A stretch of DNA of 64,000 nucleotides from Escherichia phage Eps7, in the sequence record NC_010583.1. One strand, written 5' to 3'. Both the position numbers and the translations under genes were made by a program. Below, piece after piece: positions 4,156 through 60,274 of the stretch. How positions within the stretch are numbered: the first letter of the stretch is position 1; every line of letters begins with the position of its first letter. Below the pieces are notes generated by a model. It was not told the origin of the DNA, did no database searches, and was given only the letters and a program-made list of their open reading frames with translations.

Positions 4156-4680
4156 TTAAATATCACCAATTCTTGTAAGAATGAAAGCGTTTTATCTGCA
4201 TTCTGTCCTGCCACATAGTCCATTCTAGTTGCCATTGAATTATAAGTAATATGATGATGCAGATGTACATCAGCAGATAATGGTGTGGCTGAAGTAATAG
4301 TAGAGATATACGCCATATCTAGATGATTTTTTGACATACATTTCAAGAAGCAGAGTTGCTCCCCCTAATACTACAGTTACCTCTTCCTTGAGAAAATCAG
4401 GCAGACGGTATCCAATGTTGCTTATGCGTGTAGCTGATCTTATAGAGTTCGGTAGTGGTCTATTTGCATAAATAAATAGGTCAGAATCTCCTAGTATTCT
4501 TTTTTGCAGAGTCTCAGGGAATGCTAACCAAGTTCCTGCTCCTACAATAATATTGTCAGGTGCCAGAGAATCCAATGTAGCATAGAAGATATCTAGTTCT
4601 TCTTTGAAAGAACCCCAGGGGAGCTTACCATTGAGGCCGAACTCCCCATTCGGCCCAGTTGCATAGATTGCTGCTATCAT
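4152..4680 (-). CDS. frd: dihydrofolate reductase, interrupted by a frameshift in a homopolymer
   Basis: N-terminal [22 protein letters not shown] and GGATLL motifs; frame is lost at T6 (4327-4332) and a DHFR-like C-terminus resumes in the overlapping 64-aa ORF; total ~166 aa. Confidence 0.8.
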
Positions 4681-5825
4681 TAGAACATATCCTCAAATTC
4701 GTTGCCAAGATCTTTCAGAGTATCAGCAGATGTTTCTGTTACTTGACCTACACGATACGCTGCGCCAATCTGAATCTCTTGCGGAGCAGGTTGTAAAGAT
4801 GTAGTATCCAACCAGTTCATAATCCACGGAATAGGGTTCTTAGTAATTACAGGTAAGTGGCTTGGCCATTCTACACCAATGTGCATAAATGCGTTACGTC
4901 CTACAAAGTAAAGGTATTCTTCAAGCAGTTCTGCGTTCAAACCAATCAGACTGCGGCCTTTAAAGATAAAGTGGCCCCATTCAATCTCAGTTTTCAGAGT
5001 TTTTAGGAGTTGTGTTGGTGCTTTAGCTAATGCTTCATCTACCAGATCTTTATCAAATTGCTGGAACATAATCTGGATGATAGCTTTAGACATTTGAGTA
5101 TGTAGAGCTTCATCTTTAGCGATTAATTGCAGGTTCTTAGCAATACCTTGCAGAATATCGTTCTCTGCTAGAGCAAAGGTACATGCAAAGGATGCGTAGA
5201 ACTGCATTGCTTCCAGACCGTAGATTGCAAAGTAAGCATCTAACAGCTTAGCCTGAGTTTCACGTTTAACTTCAGGGAACTCAGTTTCTGGATAAGTATT
5301 ATCACCACGATGATCACGTACTGCAAGGAAATACTGACCTAACAGATACAATTCATCAAACAGTTCAACAGAATCTGCGATACGTGCAAATGCTTCTTGG
5401 TTTTTAGTTACAGAATCAATAAATTCTGCTGGATCAGTCAGAACGTTACGAATAATATTACTATACGCACGGCTGTGCAGATCTTCGAAGTAGCTCCACT
5501 GCTTGAGCATACCCTCCAATTCAGGACGGCTTACAAGCGGCATAATAGCTGCTTCAGGAGCACGGCTAATGAAAGAATCTGTTTGGGTCTGCCATGCTAA
5601 GTTCAGGAGAGTAATTTCCTGAATATCACGCGGAAGGTTTGGCCATTGTTTCTTATCGGCTTCCAGACTGATTTCAGTTTCAGTCCAAAATTGAGAACGT
5701 TGCAGAAGTGCTAGACGCTCAAGTTCAGGATGTGCTACACGAACGTAATCTGCGATACCAAGAGAATCGCCCAGGAAAAGGTCAGCGTTAGTATGATCCC
5801 AATTCAGGTTTAGTAAAGTAGTCAT
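4680..5825 (-). CDS. nrdB: ribonucleotide reductase class Ia beta subunit
   Basis: collinear with E. coli NrdB (EDLHSRAYS, FYASFA, AKDEALH iron-ligand regions); 381 aa. Confidence 0.95.
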   Translation of the reverse strand: MTTLLNLNWDHTNADLFLGDSLGIADYVRVAHPELERLALLQRSQFWTETEISLEADKKQWPNLPRDIQEITLLNLAWQTQTDSFISRAPEAAIMPLVSRPELEGMLKQWSYFEDLHSRAYSNIIRNVLTDPAEFIDSVTKNQEAFARIADSVELFDELYLLGQYFLAVRDHRGDNTYPETEFPEVKRETQAKLLDAYFAIYGLEAMQFYASFACTFALAENDILQGIAKNLQLIAKDEALHTQMSKAIIQIMFQQFDKDLVDEALAKAPTQLLKTLKTEIEWGHFIFKGRSLIGLNAELLEEYLYFVGRNAFMHIGVEWPSHLPVITKNPIPWIMNWLDTTSLQPAPQEIQIGAAYRVGQVTETSADTLKDLGNEFEDMF

Positions 5826-5856
5826 TGATTTTCCTCTTTCTCACTATTTCAGGAAT

Positions 5857-5885
5857 ATTATAGCAAATCTGGTAGCGATTAGCAA
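5857..5885 (-). promoter_or_regulatory. sigma70-type promoter TTGCTA-17-TATAAT upstream of nrdB
   Basis: minus strand reads ACTTGCTAATCGCTACCAGATTTGCTATAAT. Confidence 0.55.
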
Positions 5886-5891
5886 GTAAAA

Positions 5892-6374
5892 TTATAAACT
5901 ATCAAGCTCCAATAGTTTAGCATCGCGCCATTCTATAGCATCCTCTAATTCTTTAAATGTTTTAGTATGTTTTACACCTTTCCTAGCTATTTGGACTTGA
6001 TAAGATCCACTTGCTTTTTGGTGTATATTTTTAATACCTAACTTATTGTCCTTATGTGCTCCAACGTTCTTTCCATTACTAAATCTGTTAGAGGCTAGTA
6101 AATTAATTGCTCTATTATCATGACGTATTCTATTATCATGATCTACTTCTTTTGGGATGTACCCATGCGTAATATAGAATGCTAGGATATGTGCGTAGTA
6201 TTTTGTACCTCTTACCTGCATTACTATGTATCCTGAGCATTTTTCCAAAGAGCCTGCCTCTTTGCCTGCAAACTTAGTATTAAATGATTTATCTTCTCTA
6301 GGTTTGTGGGTAAAGATTCCGGTTTCTGGATTATAGTCAAATAACTCAGCTATTTCTTTGTATTTTTCTTCCAT
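5892..6374 (-). CDS. HNH homing endonuclease with AP2-type DNA-binding domain
   Basis: HILAFYITHGYIP..VDHDNRIRHDNRAINL (HNH) plus GVKHTKTFKELEDAIEWRD (AP2-like); sits between nrdA and nrdB. Confidence 0.8.
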   Translation of the reverse strand: MEEKYKEIAELFDYNPETGIFTHKPREDKSFNTKFAGKEAGSLEKCSGYIVMQVRGTKYYAHILAFYITHGYIPKEVDHDNRIRHDNRAINLLASNRFSNGKNVGAHKDNKLGIKNIHQKASGSYQVQIARKGVKHTKTFKELEDAIEWRDAKLLELDSL

Positions 6375-6406
6375 AATCTAAAATTACAGCCATTATAGGC
6401 CTAATA

Positions 6407-6425
6407 AAGGGGCTTTCGCCCCTTA
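6407..6425 (-). terminator. third copy of the GGGGC-TTTC-GCCCC hairpin, T-rich on both sides (possibly bidirectional)
   Basis: AAGGGGCTTTCGCCCCTT directly 3' of nrdA. Confidence 0.55.
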
Positions 6426-6429
6426 TTTA

Positions 6430-8822
6430 TTATAATTGACAACCACCAGATGCGCATCCAGCAGCAGCTTCCTCTCCTGCACCTCCACCATTTTCAGTGT
6501 TGAAGTTTGCATAATAAAAGGTTTTCCAACCGTACTTAACAGCAGTCATAAAGTCACGAACTACTACTGGGCCGGGAATGATTTCATTCTCGAACTTGGT
6601 GTAGTCATAGTACATATTCGTACTGATAGACTGGCTGAAGAATTTCTGCATGGTTGCTACCCATTTGATCCACTCGATACGATCTACATCATAAGCCAGT
6701 TTATAGCTCATTAATGTATCCCAATCAGTTGCACCTGGAGCAATTGCAATTACTTTATTAACTGCACTACCCTTGATAGATACGATCTTACGGGGCGGTT
6801 CGATAGAGTTAGTAACACCTAGCAGTACAGAGGAACTTTCACCTGGCATCTGAGCAGTCAGAACAGAGTTGCGCATACCATATTTCAGAATATCTGCACG
6901 CAGAGATTCCCAATCCATTTCTAGACCTACAGTTACCAGTTCATCAACAGTTTTCTTGTACGTGTCGATTACCAGAGTTCCTTGCGAAGGCTTAGTACGA
7001 TTAAACCAGTCACATGCACCTTGTTCTTTAGCCAGACGTACAGAGGCTTTATGTAGGAAGTAGGACAGCTTTTCAGCTTCACGGTGAATCCAGTTACGTG
7101 CTTCAACACCTTCGTAAGCCAAACCTTCTGCTGCCATTGCACCTGCTGCGTTCATCAGACCAATACCAACGTTACGACGTTTCTTAGCCGTGTACTTCCA
7201 TAGTTGGGAATGGGTAATCCTGAATCTCGATGATTGTATCAACGAATTTCAGAAGGATGTAGCAAGTTTTCTCCCATTCAGCCAGAGATTCCATGCGGCC
7301 TAGTACAACACCACCTAAGTTACACAGAGATACTTCACCAATATCTTCTGGACGCATATCGTCTAACTGATCTTGGGTTTTATACAGTTCCGTAACGTGA
7401 TGGAATGGACGGGTGGCTGAGTAATTCAACACAAAAGGGTTGGTCATACGAATCGGGTCAAGGAAGTTACCATGACGGTTAGATTCACCAATGTGATGAG
7501 CATACATACGCCCTGTTTCCATACGGATACGTAACCAAGTATCTAGGATTTCTTTTGCAGAGATTCTAGGAGCTGCTGGAATTGTTTTTCCTTCGTGGTC
7601 GATCTTTGTAAGAGAAGCCACACGTTTCTCCGCTGCCACGTAGATTTCTTCAAACTTAGCCTCATCTTCACCATAAAACGCTTCATGAACTTCTGGTGCG
7701 TAGAAGTAGGACATTAGCGTAATATCTTCGTTTTTCAGGTAACGTTTTAACAGAAGGTTGTTAAAGCTCAGAGAATAATCCATCTTATCGATTTTATTCT
7801 CGTCTGTAGCACGTTGCTGCTTAACCTGCATCAACTGAATGATTTCAGGATCGAAGTATGGATAAGACACAGTAGCAGAACCGCCACGGGTTTGCTGAGT
7901 GTTAGCTTTTACTGATCGGTCAATGTGTCGATAATATGGCAGTTTTCCGGAATGCGGGAATGCCCCATTTCGCACCGGATCAGCAATTGATCGGCTTTCA
8001 AGATGATACCCGATTCCCGCTCTGGCTGCGACCATTTTGAAGACGATGTGCTCGGCTGTGTCGATTGAATCCAGCGTGTCAGTGGAATCCACGAGACAGC
8101 AACTAGCAAATCCACGGTCACTAGAGCGCAGGCCAACCAGTGGCGGCGTAGGAACGTTGATTTTGTGGAGCGACATTGCATTGTAGAGGTCGATTGCATC
8201 TAGGATTGTCCAGTTAGGTTGAGATAACATCGCCATTGCCATACCCATGTAGGCAAACTGCGGGGTTTCATAAATTTCACCAGTTGCAATATTACGACGA
8301 GAATACTTGTCGAAGAACTGTTTCAGTCCACCACTGGTGAATAAACGATCGCGATCATGATCAATAACTTGGTTCAGAGCGTCAAACTGATCATCGCTAA
8401 TCCATGCACTCATGTCTTCCCAGCGCCAACACGAACCATATGATCGTGGAAGAAACGCAGAGAAGGGGTTCAAAGGAATCATATAGGCGTTTACGCATCT
8501 GCGCAAGACGTAATTCCTTTGCTACAGTATCATATGCTGGGTTGTCTTTGATAAGACCTTCAGCGGCTTTAATTAACACATCTTGGAGGGTATCGGAATC
8601 TACAACACCTTTTGGTAGATTTTTCTGGGCAGACATAACGACGGCAGACCAACTTACGTCAGTTGCTTTACATGCCCATGCAGCCCAATCATTGAGTTTT
8701 TCAGGAGCAAAGTCCTGAACAGTACCGTCACGTTTAATTACTTTTTCAATACTATGGCTCATTGGGGTTTCCTTTTTGTAGTTATCAGGATTTAGGAAAT
8801 ATTCTACTTTGTTTTGGGTCAT
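6430..8822 (-). CDS. nrdA: ribonucleotide reductase class Ia alpha subunit, split over three frames by single-base indels
   Basis: ATP-cone N-terminus (8397..8822), catalytic core (7184..8506) and C-terminus GIGLMN..CASGGCQL (6430..7242) are collinear with E. coli NrdA; frame breaks at G4 (8465-8468), CCC (8419-8421) and about 7181-7190. Confidence 0.9.
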
Positions 8823-9129: not shown

Positions 9130-9429
9130 TTACACCTTCCCCATATCCTTAAAGATATCGTAGAATGCTTTAGACTCCGGTGAGCGAACGTTGTCGATCA
9201 GTTCGATCATAGAGAAAGGAGAGTTTTCGTACTTCTCATAGACTTCCATAAGAAGTGCTAGACCTGAATCACCCTTGATGTCTTTCTGAGCTATATCCCC
9301 ACAGATAATTAAACGACAATCTTGTCCTACACGAGTCAGGAGACAGATCATTGCTTCAACGGAGATATTCTGAGCTTCATCGACAATTACATAGGAGTTG
9401 TTGAATGTTGCCACGCTTTCTTGAACCAT
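9130..9429 (-). CDS. PhoH-like ATPase, C-terminal half only (Walker B onward)
   Basis: VIVDEAQN, LTRVG, GDIAQKD, SGL and VRS motifs; no Walker A upstream; an out-of-frame ATG with AGGAG RBS lies at about 9463. Confidence 0.65.
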   Translation of the reverse strand: MVQESVATFNNSYVIVDEAQNISVEAMICLLTRVGQDCRLIICGDIAQKDIKGDSGLALLMEVYEKYENSPFSMIELIDNVRSPESKAFYDIFKDMGKV

Positions 9430-56709: not shown

Positions 56710-57192
56710 TTAAGCCTCCGGCGCAGGGTTGATAGTTGTTACGCACTCGTTAGAAGTAATAGAAGTAGATTTACTATCCGTTACAACAACTTTGTAAGTA
56801 CCAGCATCTTCTGCAGCAGCTGTAGCTTTGTTGAAATTAGGACCAGTAACACCACTAAGTGGAGAACCGTCTTTAGTCCAAGCATAAGTATATGGTGCAG
56901 TACCACCAGTAACTGTTACGCCCAGATTAATTGCTGCACCAGTATCAACAGCTAGAGTTTTAGCCAGATTCTTCGTGAAAGCTAGAGCCGGAACAACCGG
57001 AGCAGTAACTTCGTATACTTCTTTGAACTTATTCCAAACCTTGCGGTTGGTATGTGCAGTGGTCATTCCAAACTCTTTACGTAGAGTAGCGTAGTTTGGA
57101 ACGAACTTGTGTGCTGCAACCGTAGCAAAGAAGATATGAGATTCTGGCAGCTTTTCACCAAAAATGGCCTTTAGACCATCATAATCAATCAT
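56710..57192 (-). CDS. capsid decoration protein candidate with C-terminal Ig-like domain (pb10-like)
   Basis: 160 aa; C-terminal Ig-like region GTYKVVVTDS. Confidence 0.55.
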   Translation of the reverse strand: MIDYDGLKAIFGEKLPESHIFFATVAAHKFVPNYATLRKEFGMTTAHTNRKVWNKFKEVYEVTAPVVPALAFTKNLAKTLAVDTGAAINLGVTVTGGTAPYTYAWTKDGSPLSGVTGPNFNKATAAAEDAGTYKVVVTDSKSTSITSNECVTTINPAPEA

Positions 57193-58406
57193 TCTTTATC
57201 CCCATCGGCAGTGCCTTGCGGTCTACCACCTTCTTGACCAGATACACCTGTTGCAGAACCAGCAACGTTAGCAGGAATACGAATCTTATTCATCTGCTCA
57301 TCATCTAAAGGTTCAAGGTTAAGCTCTTCACGAGCTTCGTTACCAGTCATGATACCGTTATTAACCAAAGAGGTTAAATGTTTAGCCTCAGCTTCTTTAT
57401 CTGGCGTCAGTGCAGCTACTTCCTTAGTATTAGGAGTAACCTTGTAGCCAAAGAAGAAAGTAAGAGAACTAGTCAGCTTGTTCAGCATAGGAATGATAGT
57501 CATGTAATAGAACAATTCGATGTTTGGTCGAATGTTAGCGTTATTACCACCATCAAGTAGCACTTGCGGAACACCAAAGGCAAGACAGATGGATTTATTA
57601 AATCCTTCGATATCTTCCTTGAAGTCTAGATCTTTAAAAGAGGATATTTGGGAGTACGGTTTTGCTTTCATACCACCATCTAGAATCAGGACAGTAGACT
57701 GACCCGTACTAGGATTATAATCGAGTTGTAATTCTTCTTGTTTACGCTCACGCAATTTCTTGTTCAGGATTTCATCCGTCTCAAGAATAAGACCAATCAC
57801 AGTGCCGTTATCGAGGAATTTCTCTTTAAAGTTAAGCATTTTAGAACGCTTCTCAAGAGAGTCAATAACTGTAGCAACACGAGATTGTCCAGAAATTTGG
57901 GAGTTTGTGCCACACACGTAACTGTTATCCTTTATAAAGATAATCTCATCTACGCGATAGTCTATCTGGTTATTAAATATGAATTTTTTGATAAACTTAT
58001 TGGCATCTGCCTCTACTTGCATTAGTGCAGCAGGGACATGGTAAAGTGCTGTGCCATCCCAATAGATGTATGCACAACCCTCAAAAAGTAGGTCAGTGAC
58101 TACAAGTCTACGGAATGTGCTTATATCCATGAATGGATTAGGTCGTACATTTAAGAGAGTGTCTAGAGTCTTTGCCTTGACGCCATTAGCGTACGTGACA
58201 ATATTATATTTATCTCCGACAGTATAAGAACACTCAGCCGCACTATCAATAACCATGTTAGCAGTTCGGTTGAGAATCTCAATCTTACTGTAGGCTTGTC
58301 CAGTGGTAAATGGCTTACGGTTAGTACGATGACTAACTGGTTCCATGTCTCTTATAATACGTTGACCCGGATTTAGCTTTTCAGTAATCCAGCTTTTTAA
58401 ACCCAT
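57189..58406 (-). CDS. portal protein
   Basis: 405 aa, between terminase and protease; acidic/Gly-rich C-terminus. Confidence 0.8.
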   Translation of the reverse strand: MGLKSWITEKLNPGQRIIRDMEPVSHRTNRKPFTTGQAYSKIEILNRTANMVIDSAAECSYTVGDKYNIVTYANGVKAKTLDTLLNVRPNPFMDISTFRRLVVTDLLFEGCAYIYWDGTALYHVPAALMQVEADANKFIKKFIFNNQIDYRVDEIIFIKDNSYVCGTNSQISGQSRVATVIDSLEKRSKMLNFKEKFLDNGTVIGLILETDEILNKKLRERKQEELQLDYNPSTGQSTVLILDGGMKAKPYSQISSFKDLDFKEDIEGFNKSICLAFGVPQVLLDGGNNANIRPNIELFYYMTIIPMLNKLTSSLTFFFGYKVTPNTKEVAALTPDKEAEAKHLTSLVNNGIMTGNEAREELNLEPLDDEQMNKIRIPANVAGSATGVSGQEGGRPQGTADGDKE

Positions 58407-58946
58407 TATAAGAACCTTGCGAATCCTGATTTAGTTTCAGTCTTGACTTGTGTCTTTTCTTGAGGATTCTGTAGCTTTTCCTTTTGTTTAAGAACCCATG
58501 CCTTCTGCTTATTAGCAGAGAAAAGGGGAGGTTCTTTAGTGTACACCTTATGTAATAGTTGGTGATGGTGGACACAAAGGGTAACAGTGTCATCTACTAG
58601 CTCATGCCTATATCTTTCATAGAATGCCGTCCTATTTGAGAGGACTGTTTCTTCGTCAGTGAAATCCAACTGGAGTTCTTTAGCAAATTTTTTAACTAGT
58701 AGAGACACTGTATGGTAATGATGAAGCTCTAATTCTTCACCACAACCACAGATTTCGCAGCGATCGGCTTTTTTTATATTGACTTTTTATACCGTCTCGC
58801 ATGAGTGATATAGCATCACGTTTATATTTTACATTTCCTGCCACAGTATTCTCCTCAACTGTATGAATATAGTATACATAATCATGTCGAATTTGTAAAG
58901 GGATTTTAAAATGCAGGAATGGGATACCAACTGAGTAGTATCCCAT
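58406..58946 (-). CDS. HNH endonuclease, frameshifted
   Basis: CEICGCGEELELHHYH ... LCVHHHQLLH motifs restored if the T7 run (58769-58775) is read as T6. Confidence 0.65.
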
Positions 58947-58957
58947 CCTATACTTAT

Positions 58958-60274
58958 TTATTTCCCACGGGAAATTGAGTAAATTCCATAACGCAGTGCG
59001 TCACAAAGGTGAGAGTTCGCATCATGACGTGGTTTTTCACGTGATAATTTCTCTTCGCCTTCCTGGAAGTCCCACTTGTAGTTCGCTAGGGCGTGGATCA
59101 ATGAGGTACATGAAGCATCTACGATGATCTTGCCTTGCTGGAACAGTGCTTGTAGACATGCCAAACCATCTAGGACAGATTTCTTAGCAGGTGCAGAAGC
59201 GATTTCATGTTCATATGCTAAGTCTTGACGGAACTGAGCAGCAGCGGAGTCTACAAATATACGATCAACATTATAACGATCTATGCAGTGTTGGATATAA
59301 GTAGCGTGTTGAGCTGTAGTCTTTTCAGCTTGCTGATATTCTTCCAGTACGTAATAAACATCAGTATCATAGTGATACTTGATAGTAAGAACTGCTGTAG
59401 GGTCACGATAACCAACGTCGATACCAAGTAGTGTTTCGAAAGCCTCATCATCTTTAAAGAAGTGGCGCATACCTTTGAGGTCTTTAACATGTTCGATAGC
59501 ATTGAAGGTGTCAAAGATCTGACCTTCGAATACAGAGAAGTCAGCCTCATATTCTTGACGGAAGTAGTTTTTACTAACAGTACGACGCGCTTCTTCGATA
59601 TCGTTCAGATCAGCACGTGGGTTATCACGATATGTACCATGAATAGATACCCAGTTAGGTAGAGTTTCGTTAAATCCTTTCTCATAGAACTCTTTAAACC
59701 AGTTACCACCACGAGGTGTGGAAATAAACAGAGCTTTAGAGTTTGGCTTATCTAGAGTAGGACGTAACTGAATATCGAAAGCTGCACCACCAACGTCGGA
59801 AATCGCTGCTTCGTCAAAAATGATGAAGTCATATGAACGACCAACCGCGGAGTCAGCCTGCGCCGCAGAAGCCAGCTTAAAGAGAGAACCATTCGCTAGT
59901 TCAATCTCTTTATCTTTTGCGTTCTCACGTTCAGTCTGTAATCCATACTTCTTAATAAGACCACGAATCTGTGACCAACCTATGTTAGCCAGTGAGTAGT
60001 TAGGTGCAACTACCAGCACCTTCACATTGGGTTCCAGAAGTTTTAGGAACCCAAGTGTATATGCGATGAATGACTTACCTACACGACGTGATACACATGC
60101 AGTCACGAAGCGGTGTCTTGGGTCTTCCAGCGCATTAATGATTGCAATCTGAGGGGCATTAGGTGTAATTCCCTCTTGAGCTAGAATGCTAGAGACTGGC
60201 AGACGGAAGAATCGTTTGTCAATACCAAAGTCAATAACATCTGTGGTGTTAATATAGTCTCTAGAGACTTTCAT
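58958..60274 (-). CDS. terminase large subunit
   Basis: Walker A-like RRVGKSF, Walker B FIIFDEAA, C-terminal nuclease domain; 438 aa. Confidence 0.9.
   Translation of the reverse strand: MKVSRDYINTTDVIDFGIDKRFFRLPVSSILAQEGITPNAPQIAIINALEDPRHRFVTACVSRRVGKSFIAYTLGFLKLLEPNVKVLVVAPNYSLANIGWSQIRGLIKKYGLQTERENAKDKEIELANGSLFKLASAAQADSAVGRSYDFIIFDEAAISDVGGAAFDIQLRPTLDKPNSKALFISTPRGGNWFKEFYEKGFNETLPNWVSIHGTYRDNPRADLNDIEEARRTVSKNYFRQEYEADFSVFEGQIFDTFNAIEHVKDLKGMRHFFKDDEAFETLLGIDVGYRDPTAVLTIKYHYDTDVYYVLEEYQQAEKTTAQHATYIQHCIDRYNVDRIFVDSAAAQFRQDLAYEHEIASAPAKKSVLDGLACLQALFQQGKIIVDASCTSLIHALANYKWDFQEGEEKLSREKPRHDANSHLCDALRYGIYSISRGK

What the first reader, a model, noticed from the sequence alone, without database searches (positions are those of the whole stretch)
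5892..6374. HNH homing endonucleases at two classic insertion sites
One HNH-AP2 gene sits between nrdB and nrdA, and a second (frameshifted) HNH sits between the portal and terminase genes at 58406-58946. Both are typical free-standing homing endonuclease locations and signs of mobile-element traffic.
Basis: partly seen in the sequence, partly recalled or inferred. Interest (0 to 1): 0.4.

Follow-up and report, generated by a model that had tools for sequence, protein, structure and literature searches.

The report
One homing endonuclease, one conserved nickase
In this T5-like phage, the gene between nrdA and nrdB is a typical mobile homing-endonuclease gene that most relatives lack, whereas the "second HNH" between terminase and portal is the conserved T5 SciA DNA-nicking enzyme, here split by one extra base that is probably a sequencing error; both gene families are already known.

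Summary
The window comes from a T5-like phage (Demerecviridae; 98-99% identical to Salmonella/Escherichia Epseptimavirus records).

Site 1 (5892-6374, minus strand) is confirmed. It is an intact 160-aa HNH_3 protein with an AP2-like C-terminal domain, lying between nrdA and nrdB.
- It is sporadic: 46 of 437 related GenBank records carry it.
- Of 27 IMG/VR genomes, 15 have an empty 106-109 bp spacer. The other 12 carry one of at least four distinct HNH_3 lineages, including T5's own hegH.
- The roughly 534-bp cassette replaces the nrdA terminator, and the last ~60 nt of nrdA co-vary with it.
- dN/dS is 0.02-0.03.
This is an ordinary free-standing homing endonuclease gene in a hot spot.

Site 2 is not a homing endonuclease.
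- The gene is 58406-58844, not -58946.
- It is the ortholog of T5 gene T5.153, SciA, the site-specific nicking endonuclease solved in PDB 9QGV/9QGX bound to GCGC DNA.
- It is single-copy, present in 433 of 440 T5-like records, and keeps its place between terL and portal as far out as Vibrio phages.
- The frameshift is one extra A in an A6 run. The window has seven other single-base indels (frd, nrdA, one intergenic), so a sequencing error is likely.
- The truly sporadic element at this locus is a T5orf172 gene (T5.154), which this window lacks.

Both gene families are already known, so interest is low.

The parts
4680..5825 (-). nrdB, the ribonucleotide reductase small subunit; conserved flank downstream of the HEG
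   Evidence: Pfam Ribonuc_red_sm E 1.7e-35; 96-99% identical protein in 27 IMG/VR T5-like genomes
5857..5885 (-). Conserved nrdB promoter (TTGCTA-17-TGnTATAAT); homology with empty-site alleles resumes here, marking the nrdB-side edge of the insertion
   Evidence: Promoter scan; the 68 bases at 5826-5893 are 98-100% identical in ~390 records that lack the HEG
5892..6374 (-). Free-standing homing endonuclease gene: 160 aa, an N-terminal I-HmuI-like HNH_3 nuclease plus a C-terminal AP2-like DNA-binding domain
   Evidence: (phrog_99); conserved D78-H79, N91 and N100 are present; dN/dS 0.02-0.03 against the FFH_1 and SP01 copies
5892..6425 (.). Inserted cassette of about 534 bp that replaces the ~37-bp nrdA terminator found in empty-site alleles
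   Evidence: Alignments with Bf23, Sw2 and GEC_vB_N7, which have 106-109 bp spacers
6407..6424 (.). GC-rich hairpin (GGGGC-GAAA-GCCCC) brought in with the cassette, just after the nrdA stop; it replaces the native terminator hairpin
6430..6490 (-). Last ~60 nt of nrdA, whose sequence variant co-varies with presence of the HEG (candidate co-conversion tract or target-site region)
   Evidence: Identity to empty-site alleles drops to 77-86% in the first 100 nt, against 92-100% further away. HEG-carrying Tequintavirus genomes keep 93-95% in the same stretch
6430..8822 (-). nrdA, the upstream flank of the HEG; split into three ORFs in this sequence by single-base indels
   Evidence: Pfam ATP-cone, Ribonuc_red_lgN and Ribonuc_red_lgC spread over three ORFs; indels at 7195, 7413, 7430, 8421 and 8466 relative to chee130_1
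57189..58406 (-). Portal protein gene, immediately downstream of sciA
   Evidence: Pfam Phage_portal E 2e-51
58406..58844 (-). sciA ortholog (T5.153-type nicking endonuclease, 145 aa once repaired); here split into 58406..58708 and the tail of 58737..58946
58769..58775 (.). Homopolymer of 7 (A7 on the coding strand) where relatives have 6; the extra base causes the frameshift after codon 25, upstream of C29, C32 and H41/H42
   Evidence: Alignments
58845..58957 (-). terL-sciA spacer: a terminator-like hairpin (58917-58948) and a promoter-like TTTACA-17-TATACT (58871-58899). This is the slot where T5 and 74 of 435 relatives carry the T5orf172-type gene T5.154; it is empty here
58958..60274 (-). 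Large terminase subunit gene
   Evidence: Pfam Terminase_6N and Terminase_6C

Best explanation
The two genes are unrelated in kind.

(1) The ORF at 5892-6374 is a functional, free-standing HNH_3/AP2-type homing endonuclease gene. It occupies a hot spot, the ~107-bp spacer between nrdA and nrdB of T5-like phages. Inferred mechanism: when a HEG-carrying phage and a HEG-less phage co-infect the same cell, the enzyme recognises the intact nrdA-3'-end/terminator region of the empty allele through its AP2-like domain. It nicks or cuts there, as its structural neighbour I-HmuI does. Recombinational repair from the HEG-carrying genome then copies in the ~534-bp cassette together with the adjacent ~60 nt of nrdA. 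The carrier's own allele is immune because the cassette replaces that region.

(2) The gene at 58406-58844 is the ortholog of phage T5 SciA. SciA is a small zinc-binding, His-Me-finger-like endonuclease conserved in nearly all Demerecviridae records searched. It is encoded between terL and portal and makes the classical site-specific single-strand interruptions at GCGC-containing sites in T5 virion DNA. It is a resident gene of the late/packaging module, not a mobile element.

Its frameshift in this window is a +1 error in an A6 run. The most likely cause is a sequencing or assembly artefact.
For: Site 1:
- Pfam HNH_3, and a family of 33,809 representatives.
- Model pLDDT 91, with best fold matches to I-HmuI and AP2 domains. 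AP2 is found in 17 of 57 homologues.
- Only 46 of 437 related records carry it.
- Of 27 IMG/VR genomes, 15 are empty (106-109 bp spacer), 2 carry this type, 2 carry a 75-78% variant, 5 carry hegH, and 3 carry two further types.
- T5 hegH is 34% identical and is inserted at a different point of the same spacer.
- The terminator is precisely replaced, and the 3' end of nrdA co-varies with the HEG.
- dN/dS is 0.02-0.03, and the highly conserved catalytic residues are present.
- Published work says HNH homing endonucleases account for most differences between T5-like genomes (PMC10644984) and cluster next to RNR and terminase genes (PMC10448857).

Site 2:
- Present in 433 of 440 T5-like records.
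- Found in 899 records at 902 places, with identity graded from 99% to 46%.
- The order terS-terL-sciA-portal is kept in Thalassavirus, Sugarlandvirus and Tequintavirus.
- C29, C32, E39, H41, H42, C90, H93, H94 and H98 are invariant.
- dN/dS against T5 is 0.11 after removing one base.
- sciA/sciB nicking genes map to the T5 late region, and the nick consensus is R/GCGCRGG (PMC3517423).

Artefact reading: the A7-versus-A6 difference and a neighbouring C3-versus-C4 difference. There are six further 1-nt indels, in frd and nrdA, within ~15 kb compared at 98-99% identity. Another GenBank record (KKP_3831) has a different homopolymer frameshift in the same gene.
Against: - No cleavage or homing assay exists for the site-1 protein, and its target site is inferred only.
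- No convincing promoter of its own or strong Shine-Dalgarno sequence was found.
- The nearly invariant R63 is Ile in this lineage.
- dS of ~0.5 between copies in different genera shows long residence rather than recent spread. Much of its present distribution could therefore reflect vertical inheritance plus loss.
- The variable 3' tail of nrdA might simply be a fast-evolving region.
- For site 2, the paper behind the PDB entries was not in the searchable library, so the activity rests on the PDB titles and on older genetics cited second-hand.
- Nickless T5 mutants are viable (PMC11780129, PMC3517423), so a genuine frameshift cannot be excluded.
- The T5 nick consensus is not enriched in the window: 4 found against 2.0 expected.
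Confidence: 0.85

Rival explanations
1. One reading: the portal-terminase gene is a decaying, frameshifted free-standing HNH homing endonuclease that invaded a classic insertion site.
For: It lies next to the terminase, a known HEG hot spot (PMC10448857). It has a CxxC/HH His-Me-finger-like motif. It is frameshifted in this sequence. A genuine T5orf172 HEG-like gene sits right beside it in T5.
Against: It is present at the same place in 433 of 440 T5-like records and in 899 records across three Demerecviridae lineages. It is single-copy, and its identity tracks phage phylogeny. It is orthologous to the characterised SciA nickase. Apart from one base the ORF is undamaged and under purifying selection.
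Confidence: 0.03
2. The sciA frameshift is real. This phage would then be a natural sciA-null, 'nickless' T5-like phage. It may also carry decayed frd, nrdA and phoH genes, which would point to relaxed selection on accessory functions.
For: The frameshift removes C29, C32 and H41/H42 from any product. Nickless T5 mutants are viable (PMC11780129, PMC3517423). Several other accessory genes in the window also look broken.
Against: The lesion is a single extra base in a homopolymer, and a second homopolymer length change lies 130 nt away. Seven other 1-nt indels, including a compensating pair 17 nt apart in nrdA, look like base-calling errors. The rest of sciA is 98-99% identical to intact relatives.
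Confidence: 0.2
3. The terL-portal gene acts mainly as a terminase cofactor, like the HK97 gp74-type HNH proteins that stimulate terminase cutting, and is not a dedicated genome-nicking enzyme.
For: Its position between terL and portal is conserved. Many phages encode HNH nickases beside terminase genes, and a packaging role has been proposed for them (PMC3592412, PMC10448857). The two roles are not mutually exclusive.
Against: There is no Pfam HNH or gp74-like sequence match. The only strong structural match is SciA bound to GCGC DNA. sciA mutants lack nicks yet are viable, so the gene is not essential for packaging (PMC3517423, PMC11780129). T5-type phages package genomes with long terminal repeats rather than cos ends (established knowledge, not tested here).
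Confidence: 0.1
4. The nrdA-nrdB HNH gene no longer homes. It would be a domesticated or inert resident, for example a nickase or regulator used by the phage, inherited vertically and occasionally lost.
For: dS of ~0.5 between copies in different genera indicates long residence. R63 is replaced by Ile. No dedicated promoter or strong ribosome-binding site was found. Bioinformatics alone cannot show active homing (PMC10448857).
Against: Strong purifying selection (dN/dS 0.02-0.03) and intact catalytic residues. The same spacer holds at least four distinct HNH_3 lineages inserted at different points, and it is empty in most close relatives, including a 97-100% identical backbone (Sw2). The flanking nrdA tail co-varies with the HEG.
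Confidence: 0.15

Closest known systems
Free-standing HNH_3 homing endonucleases of T5-like phages (T5 heg genes such as hegH/P-TflVIII; F-TflI/II/IV) and the HNH-AP2 HEG family; structural prototype I-HmuI
   Same: It has an HNH_3 nuclease domain and an AP2-like DNA-binding domain. It is intergenic, next to ribonucleotide reductase genes, and sporadically distributed. It sits in the very spacer that T5 hegH occupies. GenBank already annotates identical genes as 'homing endonuclease' or 'HNH endonuclease'.
   Different: It is only 34% identical to T5 hegH. It is inserted upstream of the nrdB promoter, where it replaces the nrdA terminator, whereas hegH lies downstream of that promoter. Pfam's AP2 model does not detect its AP2 domain. 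No biochemical data exist for this lineage.
Phage T5 SciA nicking endonuclease (gene T5.153; PDB 9QGV, 9QGX)
   Different: The window copy carries a +1 frameshift in an A-run after codon 25. T5 has an extra T5orf172 gene (T5.154) between terL and sciA that this phage lacks.
Terminase-associated HNH endonucleases (HK97 gp74, N.phiGamma and relatives)
   Same: These are also small zinc-binding nicking endonucleases encoded beside terminase and portal genes as a fixed part of the late module rather than as mobile elements (PMC3592412, PMC10448857).
T5orf172 (GIY-YIG-like) homing-endonuclease-like genes, for example T5.154
   Same: This is the element that behaves like a HEG at the terminase-portal locus. 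It is present in T5 and in 74 of 435 relatives, inserted between the sciA promoter and the sciA start.
   Different: It is absent from this window. Only the conserved leader, which the T5.154 annotation uses as its first ~28 codons, is present at 58864-58946.

Membership tests
Free-standing HNH homing endonuclease (site 1, 5892-6374) | HNH_3-type nuclease domain with the conserved DH...N...N residues intact | tested here: met
   Pfam HNH_3 at E 4.7e-9, above the gathering score. D78, H79, N87, N91 and N100 are present, and only R63 deviates. Best fold match is I-HmuI.
Free-standing HNH homing endonuclease (site 1, 5892-6374) | Separate DNA-binding domain (AP2 type in the HNH-AP2 family) | tested here: met
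   Pfam AP2 is not detected in the protein itself. It is detected in 17 of 57 full-length homologues. The model shows three strands plus a helix at residues 117-156, which Foldseek matches to AP2 domains (probability 0.98-0.99, weak E 0.2-0.3).
Free-standing HNH homing endonuclease (site 1, 5892-6374) | Sporadic distribution with empty-site alleles in close relatives | tested here: met
   46 of 437 records carry it. 15 of 27 IMG/VR genomes have an empty 106-109 bp spacer. Sw2 is 97-100% identical in the flanks but empty.
Free-standing HNH homing endonuclease (site 1, 5892-6374) | Intergenic insertion between conserved genes, not inside an intron or intein | tested here: met
   The cassette lies between the nrdA stop and the nrdB promoter and replaces 37 bp of terminator.
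Free-standing HNH homing endonuclease (site 1, 5892-6374) | Co-conversion of flanking sequence with the HEG | tested here: inconclusive
   The last ~60-100 nt of nrdA co-vary with HEG presence across two genera. Only 10 alleles were compared, and that tail may be intrinsically variable.
Free-standing HNH homing endonuclease (site 1, 5892-6374) | Site-specific cleavage of the HEG-less allele and super-Mendelian inheritance | not testable with these tools
   This needs an in vitro nuclease assay and mixed-infection crosses.
Homing endonuclease (site 2, 58406-58844) | Sporadic distribution with empty-site alleles | tested here: not met
   Present in 433 of 440 T5-like records. Found in 899 records at 902 places, i.e. 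single copy, with identity graded from 99% to 46%. Synteny is conserved in Vibrio, Klebsiella and Escherichia phages.
T5 SciA nicking endonuclease (site 2) | Sequence and fold similarity to T5 SciA | tested here: met
T5 SciA nicking endonuclease (site 2) | Conserved Cys/His metal-binding and catalytic residues, including H42, the residue mutated in the PDB constructs | tested here: met
   C29, C32, E39, H41, H42, C90, H93, H94 and H98 are invariant in 78 homologues and are present in the repaired reading.
T5 SciA nicking endonuclease (site 2) | Uninterrupted open reading frame | tested here: not met
   An extra A at 58769-58775 splits the gene. The longest downstream ORF starts at residue 46 and lacks C29, C32, H41 and H42. 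It is undecided whether the extra base is real or a sequencing error.
T5 SciA nicking endonuclease (site 2) | Position between the large terminase and portal genes in the late region | tested here: met
T5 SciA nicking endonuclease (site 2) | Produces strand-specific nicks at GCGC-containing sites in virion DNA | not testable with these tools
   Only sequence counts were possible. RGCGCRGG occurs 4 times against 2.0 expected, which is not significant. GCGC occurs 66 times against 99+-9 expected.
HK97 gp74-type terminase-associated HNH (site 2) | Recognisable canonical HNH domain similar to gp74/N.phiGamma | tested here: not met
HK97 gp74-type terminase-associated HNH (site 2) | Required for terminase cleavage of the genome ends | not testable with these tools
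   Cited literature says nickless sci mutants are viable (PMC3517423, PMC11780129), which argues against an essential packaging role.

The most novel reading that the evidence does not exclude
The sciA frameshift is genuine, as perhaps are the lesions in nrdA, frd and phoH. This would then be a naturally occurring 'nickless' T5-like phage. It would offer a wild-type-background test of what the long-unexplained T5 genome nicks are for.
Probability: 0.2. Interest if true: 0.35.

Novelty: already known. Interest (0 to 1): 0.15.

Why it matters
The main value is as a correction. A nuclease gene beside the terminase is not automatically a homing endonuclease. In this window it is the conserved SciA nickase, which has a solved structure. 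The real mobile element at that locus, a T5orf172 gene, is absent.

The nrdA-nrdB spacer is a clear textbook example of a homing-endonuclease hot spot. Among near-identical backbones there are empty alleles and at least four different HNH lineages. That makes it a convenient natural system for studying target choice and turnover of these selfish genes.

The indel pattern also warns that this sequence is error-prone. 'Pseudogenes' in it should not be taken at face value.

Tried and rejected
- Pfam scans of the two site-2 fragments and of the repaired protein found no family.
- A PDB sequence search with the site-1 protein found nothing useful.
- The word-indexed homologue search for site 1 gave only 7 hits, so the exhaustive representative search was used instead.
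- Seven literature searches for the paper behind the SciA structures failed, and the two classical sci-mutant papers could not be opened. SciA function therefore rests on PDB titles and on PMC3517423 and PMC11780129.
- The T5 nick consensus RGCGCRGG was not enriched and showed no strand bias in the window.
- A dedicated sigma-70-type promoter for the HEG was not found.
- I considered an intron or intein as the reason nrdA is split. I rejected this because the breaks are single-base indels relative to 98%-identical intact genes.
- I considered that the ATG at 58946 is the true start of the site-2 gene. I rejected this because relatives and the PDB construct start at the GTG/ATG equivalent to 58844, and the upstream in-frame stretch exists only because of a second homopolymer change.
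- I considered programmed or transcriptional slippage on the A7 run. There is no evidence for it, since relatives encode the protein in a single frame with A6.

Full report
**Context.** The window is part of a T5-like phage genome (Demerecviridae).
- The nrd region is 98% identical to Salmonella/Escherichia Epseptimavirus records such as SB6, chee130_1 and bombadil.
- The portal-terminase region is 99% identical to KKP_3831 and phage 1-29.
- All genes discussed here lie on the minus strand.

**Site 1, the observation.**
- The ORF at 5892..6374 (160 aa) lies between nrdB (4680..5825) and nrdA (stop at 6430).
- It matches Pfam HNH_3 at E 4.7e-9 and PHROG 99, 'HNH endonuclease', at E 1e-49.
- Pfam does not find an AP2 domain in it, even at E<=10.
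- An exhaustive HMMER search shows an enormous family: 33,809 cluster representatives at E<=0.001.
- Of 57 full-length homologues, all match HNH_3 and 17 also match Pfam AP2, with a best E of 3.8e-8.
- The AlphaFold model (pLDDT 91.4) has a C-terminal three-strand-plus-helix domain at residues 117-156.
- Foldseek's best whole-protein match is the HNH homing endonuclease I-HmuI (E 8e-3, probability 0.99). AP2 domain structures 7ET4 and 3IGM follow (probability 0.77-0.99, weak E values).
- The 'HNH-AP2' description therefore holds, by homology and fold rather than by a direct Pfam hit.
- The nearly invariant residues of the family are all present except R63, which is Ile.

**Site 1, distribution.**
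- A blastn search with 5826-6429 hits 437 T5-like records. Only 46 cover the gene.
- The others match only the 68 bases at 5826-5893, which contain the nrdB promoter and ribosome-binding site.
- BF23, Sw2 and GEC_vB_N7 have nrdA followed directly by a ~107-bp spacer (terminator plus promoter) and then nrdB.
- Alignment shows that a ~534-bp cassette (about 5892-6425) replaces the ~37-bp native terminator. The cassette brings its own GC-rich hairpin (6407-6424) and ends exactly at the conserved nrdB promoter.
- T5 itself has a different HNH_3 gene in this spacer: hegH/P-TflVIII, 34% identical. It is inserted downstream of the promoter rather than upstream. hegH occurs in 75 records.

| Spacer state | Genomes |
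|---|---|
| Empty (106-109 bp) | 15 |
| Window-type gene (97% aa identity) | 2 |
| 75-78% variant of the window type | 2 |
| hegH | 5 |
| Two further types, 31-44% identical to both | 3 |

- tblastn finds relatives in 2,366 phage records, often several per genome. Only 42 are above 90% identity, and nearly all the rest are below 60%. This is the patchy pattern expected of a mobile nuclease gene.

**Site 1, signs of function and homing.**
- Against the copies in the Tequintaviruses FFH_1 and SP01, the gene differs at 38-41 of 480 nucleotides but only 4-5 of 160 residues.
- That gives dN/dS of 0.02-0.03 with dS of about 0.5. The protein is under strong purifying selection and has been resident for a long time.
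- Sw2 has an empty site and is 97-100% identical to the window through nrdB and most of nrdA. Identity falls to 86% in the last 100 nt of nrdA. For BF23 and N7 it falls to 77-78% against a ~92% background.
- The HEG-carrying FFH_1 and SP01 keep 93-95% identity in that same stretch.
- The multiple alignment shows that all HEG-carrying alleles share one nrdA tail variant.
- This fits co-conversion or target-site differences, but only ten alleles were compared.
- No dedicated promoter was found for the gene.
- Published work agrees that HNH homing endonucleases account for most differences among T5-like genomes (PMC10644984). It also agrees that phage HEGs cluster next to ribonucleotide reductase and terminase genes (PMC10448857).
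- The homing mechanism itself is inferred, not shown. It comprises recognition of the empty allele, nicking or cutting, and repair that copies in the cassette.

**Site 2, the observation.**
- Between portal (57189..58406) and terL (58958..60274), the ORF list shows two pieces in different frames: 58406..58708 (100 aa) and 58737..58946 (69 aa).
- Relatives annotate a single 438-bp gene equivalent to 58406..58844. Some label it 'nicking endonuclease'.
- The alignment shows two homopolymer differences in the window. One is A7 in place of A6 inside the gene (58769-58775). The other is C3 in place of C4 in the upstream spacer (about 58899).
- The first-stage end coordinate of 58946 is the ATG of a spurious upstream ORF that crosses the leader. 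That stretch holds a 13-bp-stem hairpin and a TTTACA-17-TATACT promoter-like site.
- It is also the sequence that the T5 annotation uses as the first ~28 codons of T5.154.

**Site 2, identity.**
- With one A removed, the 145-aa protein has no Pfam match. It belongs to phrog_3497 (unknown function) and weakly matches phrog_8048, 'HNH endonuclease', at E 9e-6.
- Against the PDB it matches 9QGV and 9QGX, 'Nicking endonuclease', at E 7.5e-77 over its full length.
- An AlphaFold model built from 78 homologues (pLDDT 86) matches 9qgv_A by Foldseek at E 1.6e-16 with TM 0.98. That entry is titled 'SciA(H42Q) endonuclease from Escherichia phage T5 in complex with 10 bp DNA (GCGC sequence 2)', released 2026-03-25.
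- The protein is therefore at most a very divergent His-Me-finger enzyme.
- C29, C32, E39, H41, H42, R71, C90, H93, H94 and H98 are invariant in the family.
- In T5 the ortholog is T5.153.
- PMC3517423 records that sciA and sciB, the genes responsible for T5's single-chain interruptions, map to the late region. It gives the major nick consensus as 5'-R/GCGCRGG-3' and notes that nickless mutants are viable. PMC11780129 makes the same point about viability.

**Site 2, distribution.**
- The 1.7-kb region is covered in 433 of 440 T5-like records.
- tblastn finds the protein in 899 phage records at 902 places, i.e. one copy per genome.
- Identity falls smoothly:

| Host group of the phages | Identity to the window protein |
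|---|---|
| Salmonella / Escherichia | 99% |
| Klebsiella | 69% |
| Vibrio | 46-49% |

- The order terS-terL-gene-portal is kept in Vibrio phage River4 (Ermolyevavirinae), Klebsiella phage PWKp9S (Sugarlandvirus) and Escherichia phage IrisVonRoten.
- This is a vertically inherited core gene.
- dN/dS against T5 is 0.11.

**The real mobile element at this locus.**
- T5 carries an extra gene, T5.154, between terL and sciA.
- It has T5orf172/MUG113 nuclease and zinc-finger domains.
- It is inserted between the conserved sciA promoter and the sciA start codon.
- It is present in 74 of 435 relatives. The rest, including this window, match only the 38-nt conserved leader.
- BASEL phage IrisVonRoten annotates the two neighbours separately, as 'putative homing endonuclease' and 'nicking endonuclease'.

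**Is the frameshift real?**
- About 15 kb of the window was aligned to 98-99%-identical relatives. It shows single-base indels at 4327 (frd), at 7195, 7413, 7430, 8421 and 8466 (nrdA), at 58769 (sciA) and at 58899 (intergenic).
- Several of these lie in short homopolymers, and one pair in nrdA is compensating.
- Structural genes (terL, portal, major capsid) are intact.
- KKP_3831 has a different homopolymer frameshift near the 3' end of the same gene.
- Apart from the one extra base, the window's sciA is undamaged.
- I judge a sequencing or assembly error the more likely explanation, at about 0.75-0.8.
- Because sciA is dispensable in the laboratory, a natural null allele cannot be excluded.

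**Comparison with known families, and verdict.**
- Site 1 belongs to the well-known family of free-standing HNH_3/AP2 homing endonucleases. Identical genes are already annotated as such in GenBank.
- Site 2 is the known SciA nickase, not a homing endonuclease. It is not demonstrably an HK97 gp74-type terminase cofactor either.
- Nothing here is new in kind.
- The useful outcomes are the corrected identity and coordinates of the second gene, and the documentation of two HEG hot spots, one occupied and one empty in this phage.
- A further outcome is the warning that this sequence carries many single-base indels.

Noticed in passing
window 6430-8822 (indels at 7195, 7413, 7430, 8421, 8466): nrdA is split into three ORFs by five single-base indels relative to a 98%-identical intact gene. 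Two of them, 17 nt apart, compensate each other. This looks like base-calling error rather than an intron or intein.
   Followed up: partly
window 4270-4680 (indel at 4327): The dihydrofolate reductase gene (frd) is truncated to 136 aa by an extra T in a T-run. There is also a 3-nt deletion at 4242. Relatives encode 175-177 aa.
   Followed up: partly
window ~9405 (phoH remnant 9130-9429): Relative to chee130_1, about 410 bp are missing from inside phoH (L006 7819-8227). Only a 99-aa C-terminal ORF is left. A two-HSP blastn confirms the deletion, but its cause is unknown.
   Followed up: partly
whole window: The tetranucleotide GCGC, the core of the SciA nick site and a palindrome, occurs 66 times against 99 +- 9 expected from dinucleotide-preserving shuffles. 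The full T5 nick consensus RGCGCRGG occurs 4 times (two per strand) against 2.0 expected.
   Followed up: no
window 58845-58957: The terL-sciA spacer holds a 13-bp-stem hairpin (58917-58948) and a promoter-like site (58871-58899). It is the empty insertion slot for a T5orf172-type gene that T5 (T5.154) and 74 of 435 relatives carry. The C-run length difference at ~58899 abuts the -35 hexamer.
   Followed up: yes
L008 (Salmonella phage SB6) 2747-3073; L007 (SP76) 5245-5730: SB6 has a second, partial 'homing endonuclease' ORF overlapping the start of the window-type HEG, possibly a tandem partial duplication. SP76 has an extra 486-bp ORF just upstream of nrdA. The surroundings of nrdA thus hold further variable insertions.
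   Followed up: no
L033, L034, L035 (IMG/VR T5-like genomes), nrdA-nrdB spacer: Two further HNH_3 lineages, 31-44% identical to both the window gene and T5 hegH, occupy the same spacer (575 and 621 bp). That makes at least four distinct occupants of a single 107-bp site.
   Followed up: partly
window 5892-6374, residue 63: The nearly invariant Arg of the family's 'HR' motif (52 of 57 homologues) is Ile in this lineage and in its 98%-identical cluster representative. The 77%-identical variant keeps Arg, and T5 hegH lacks both the His and the Arg.
   Followed up: no
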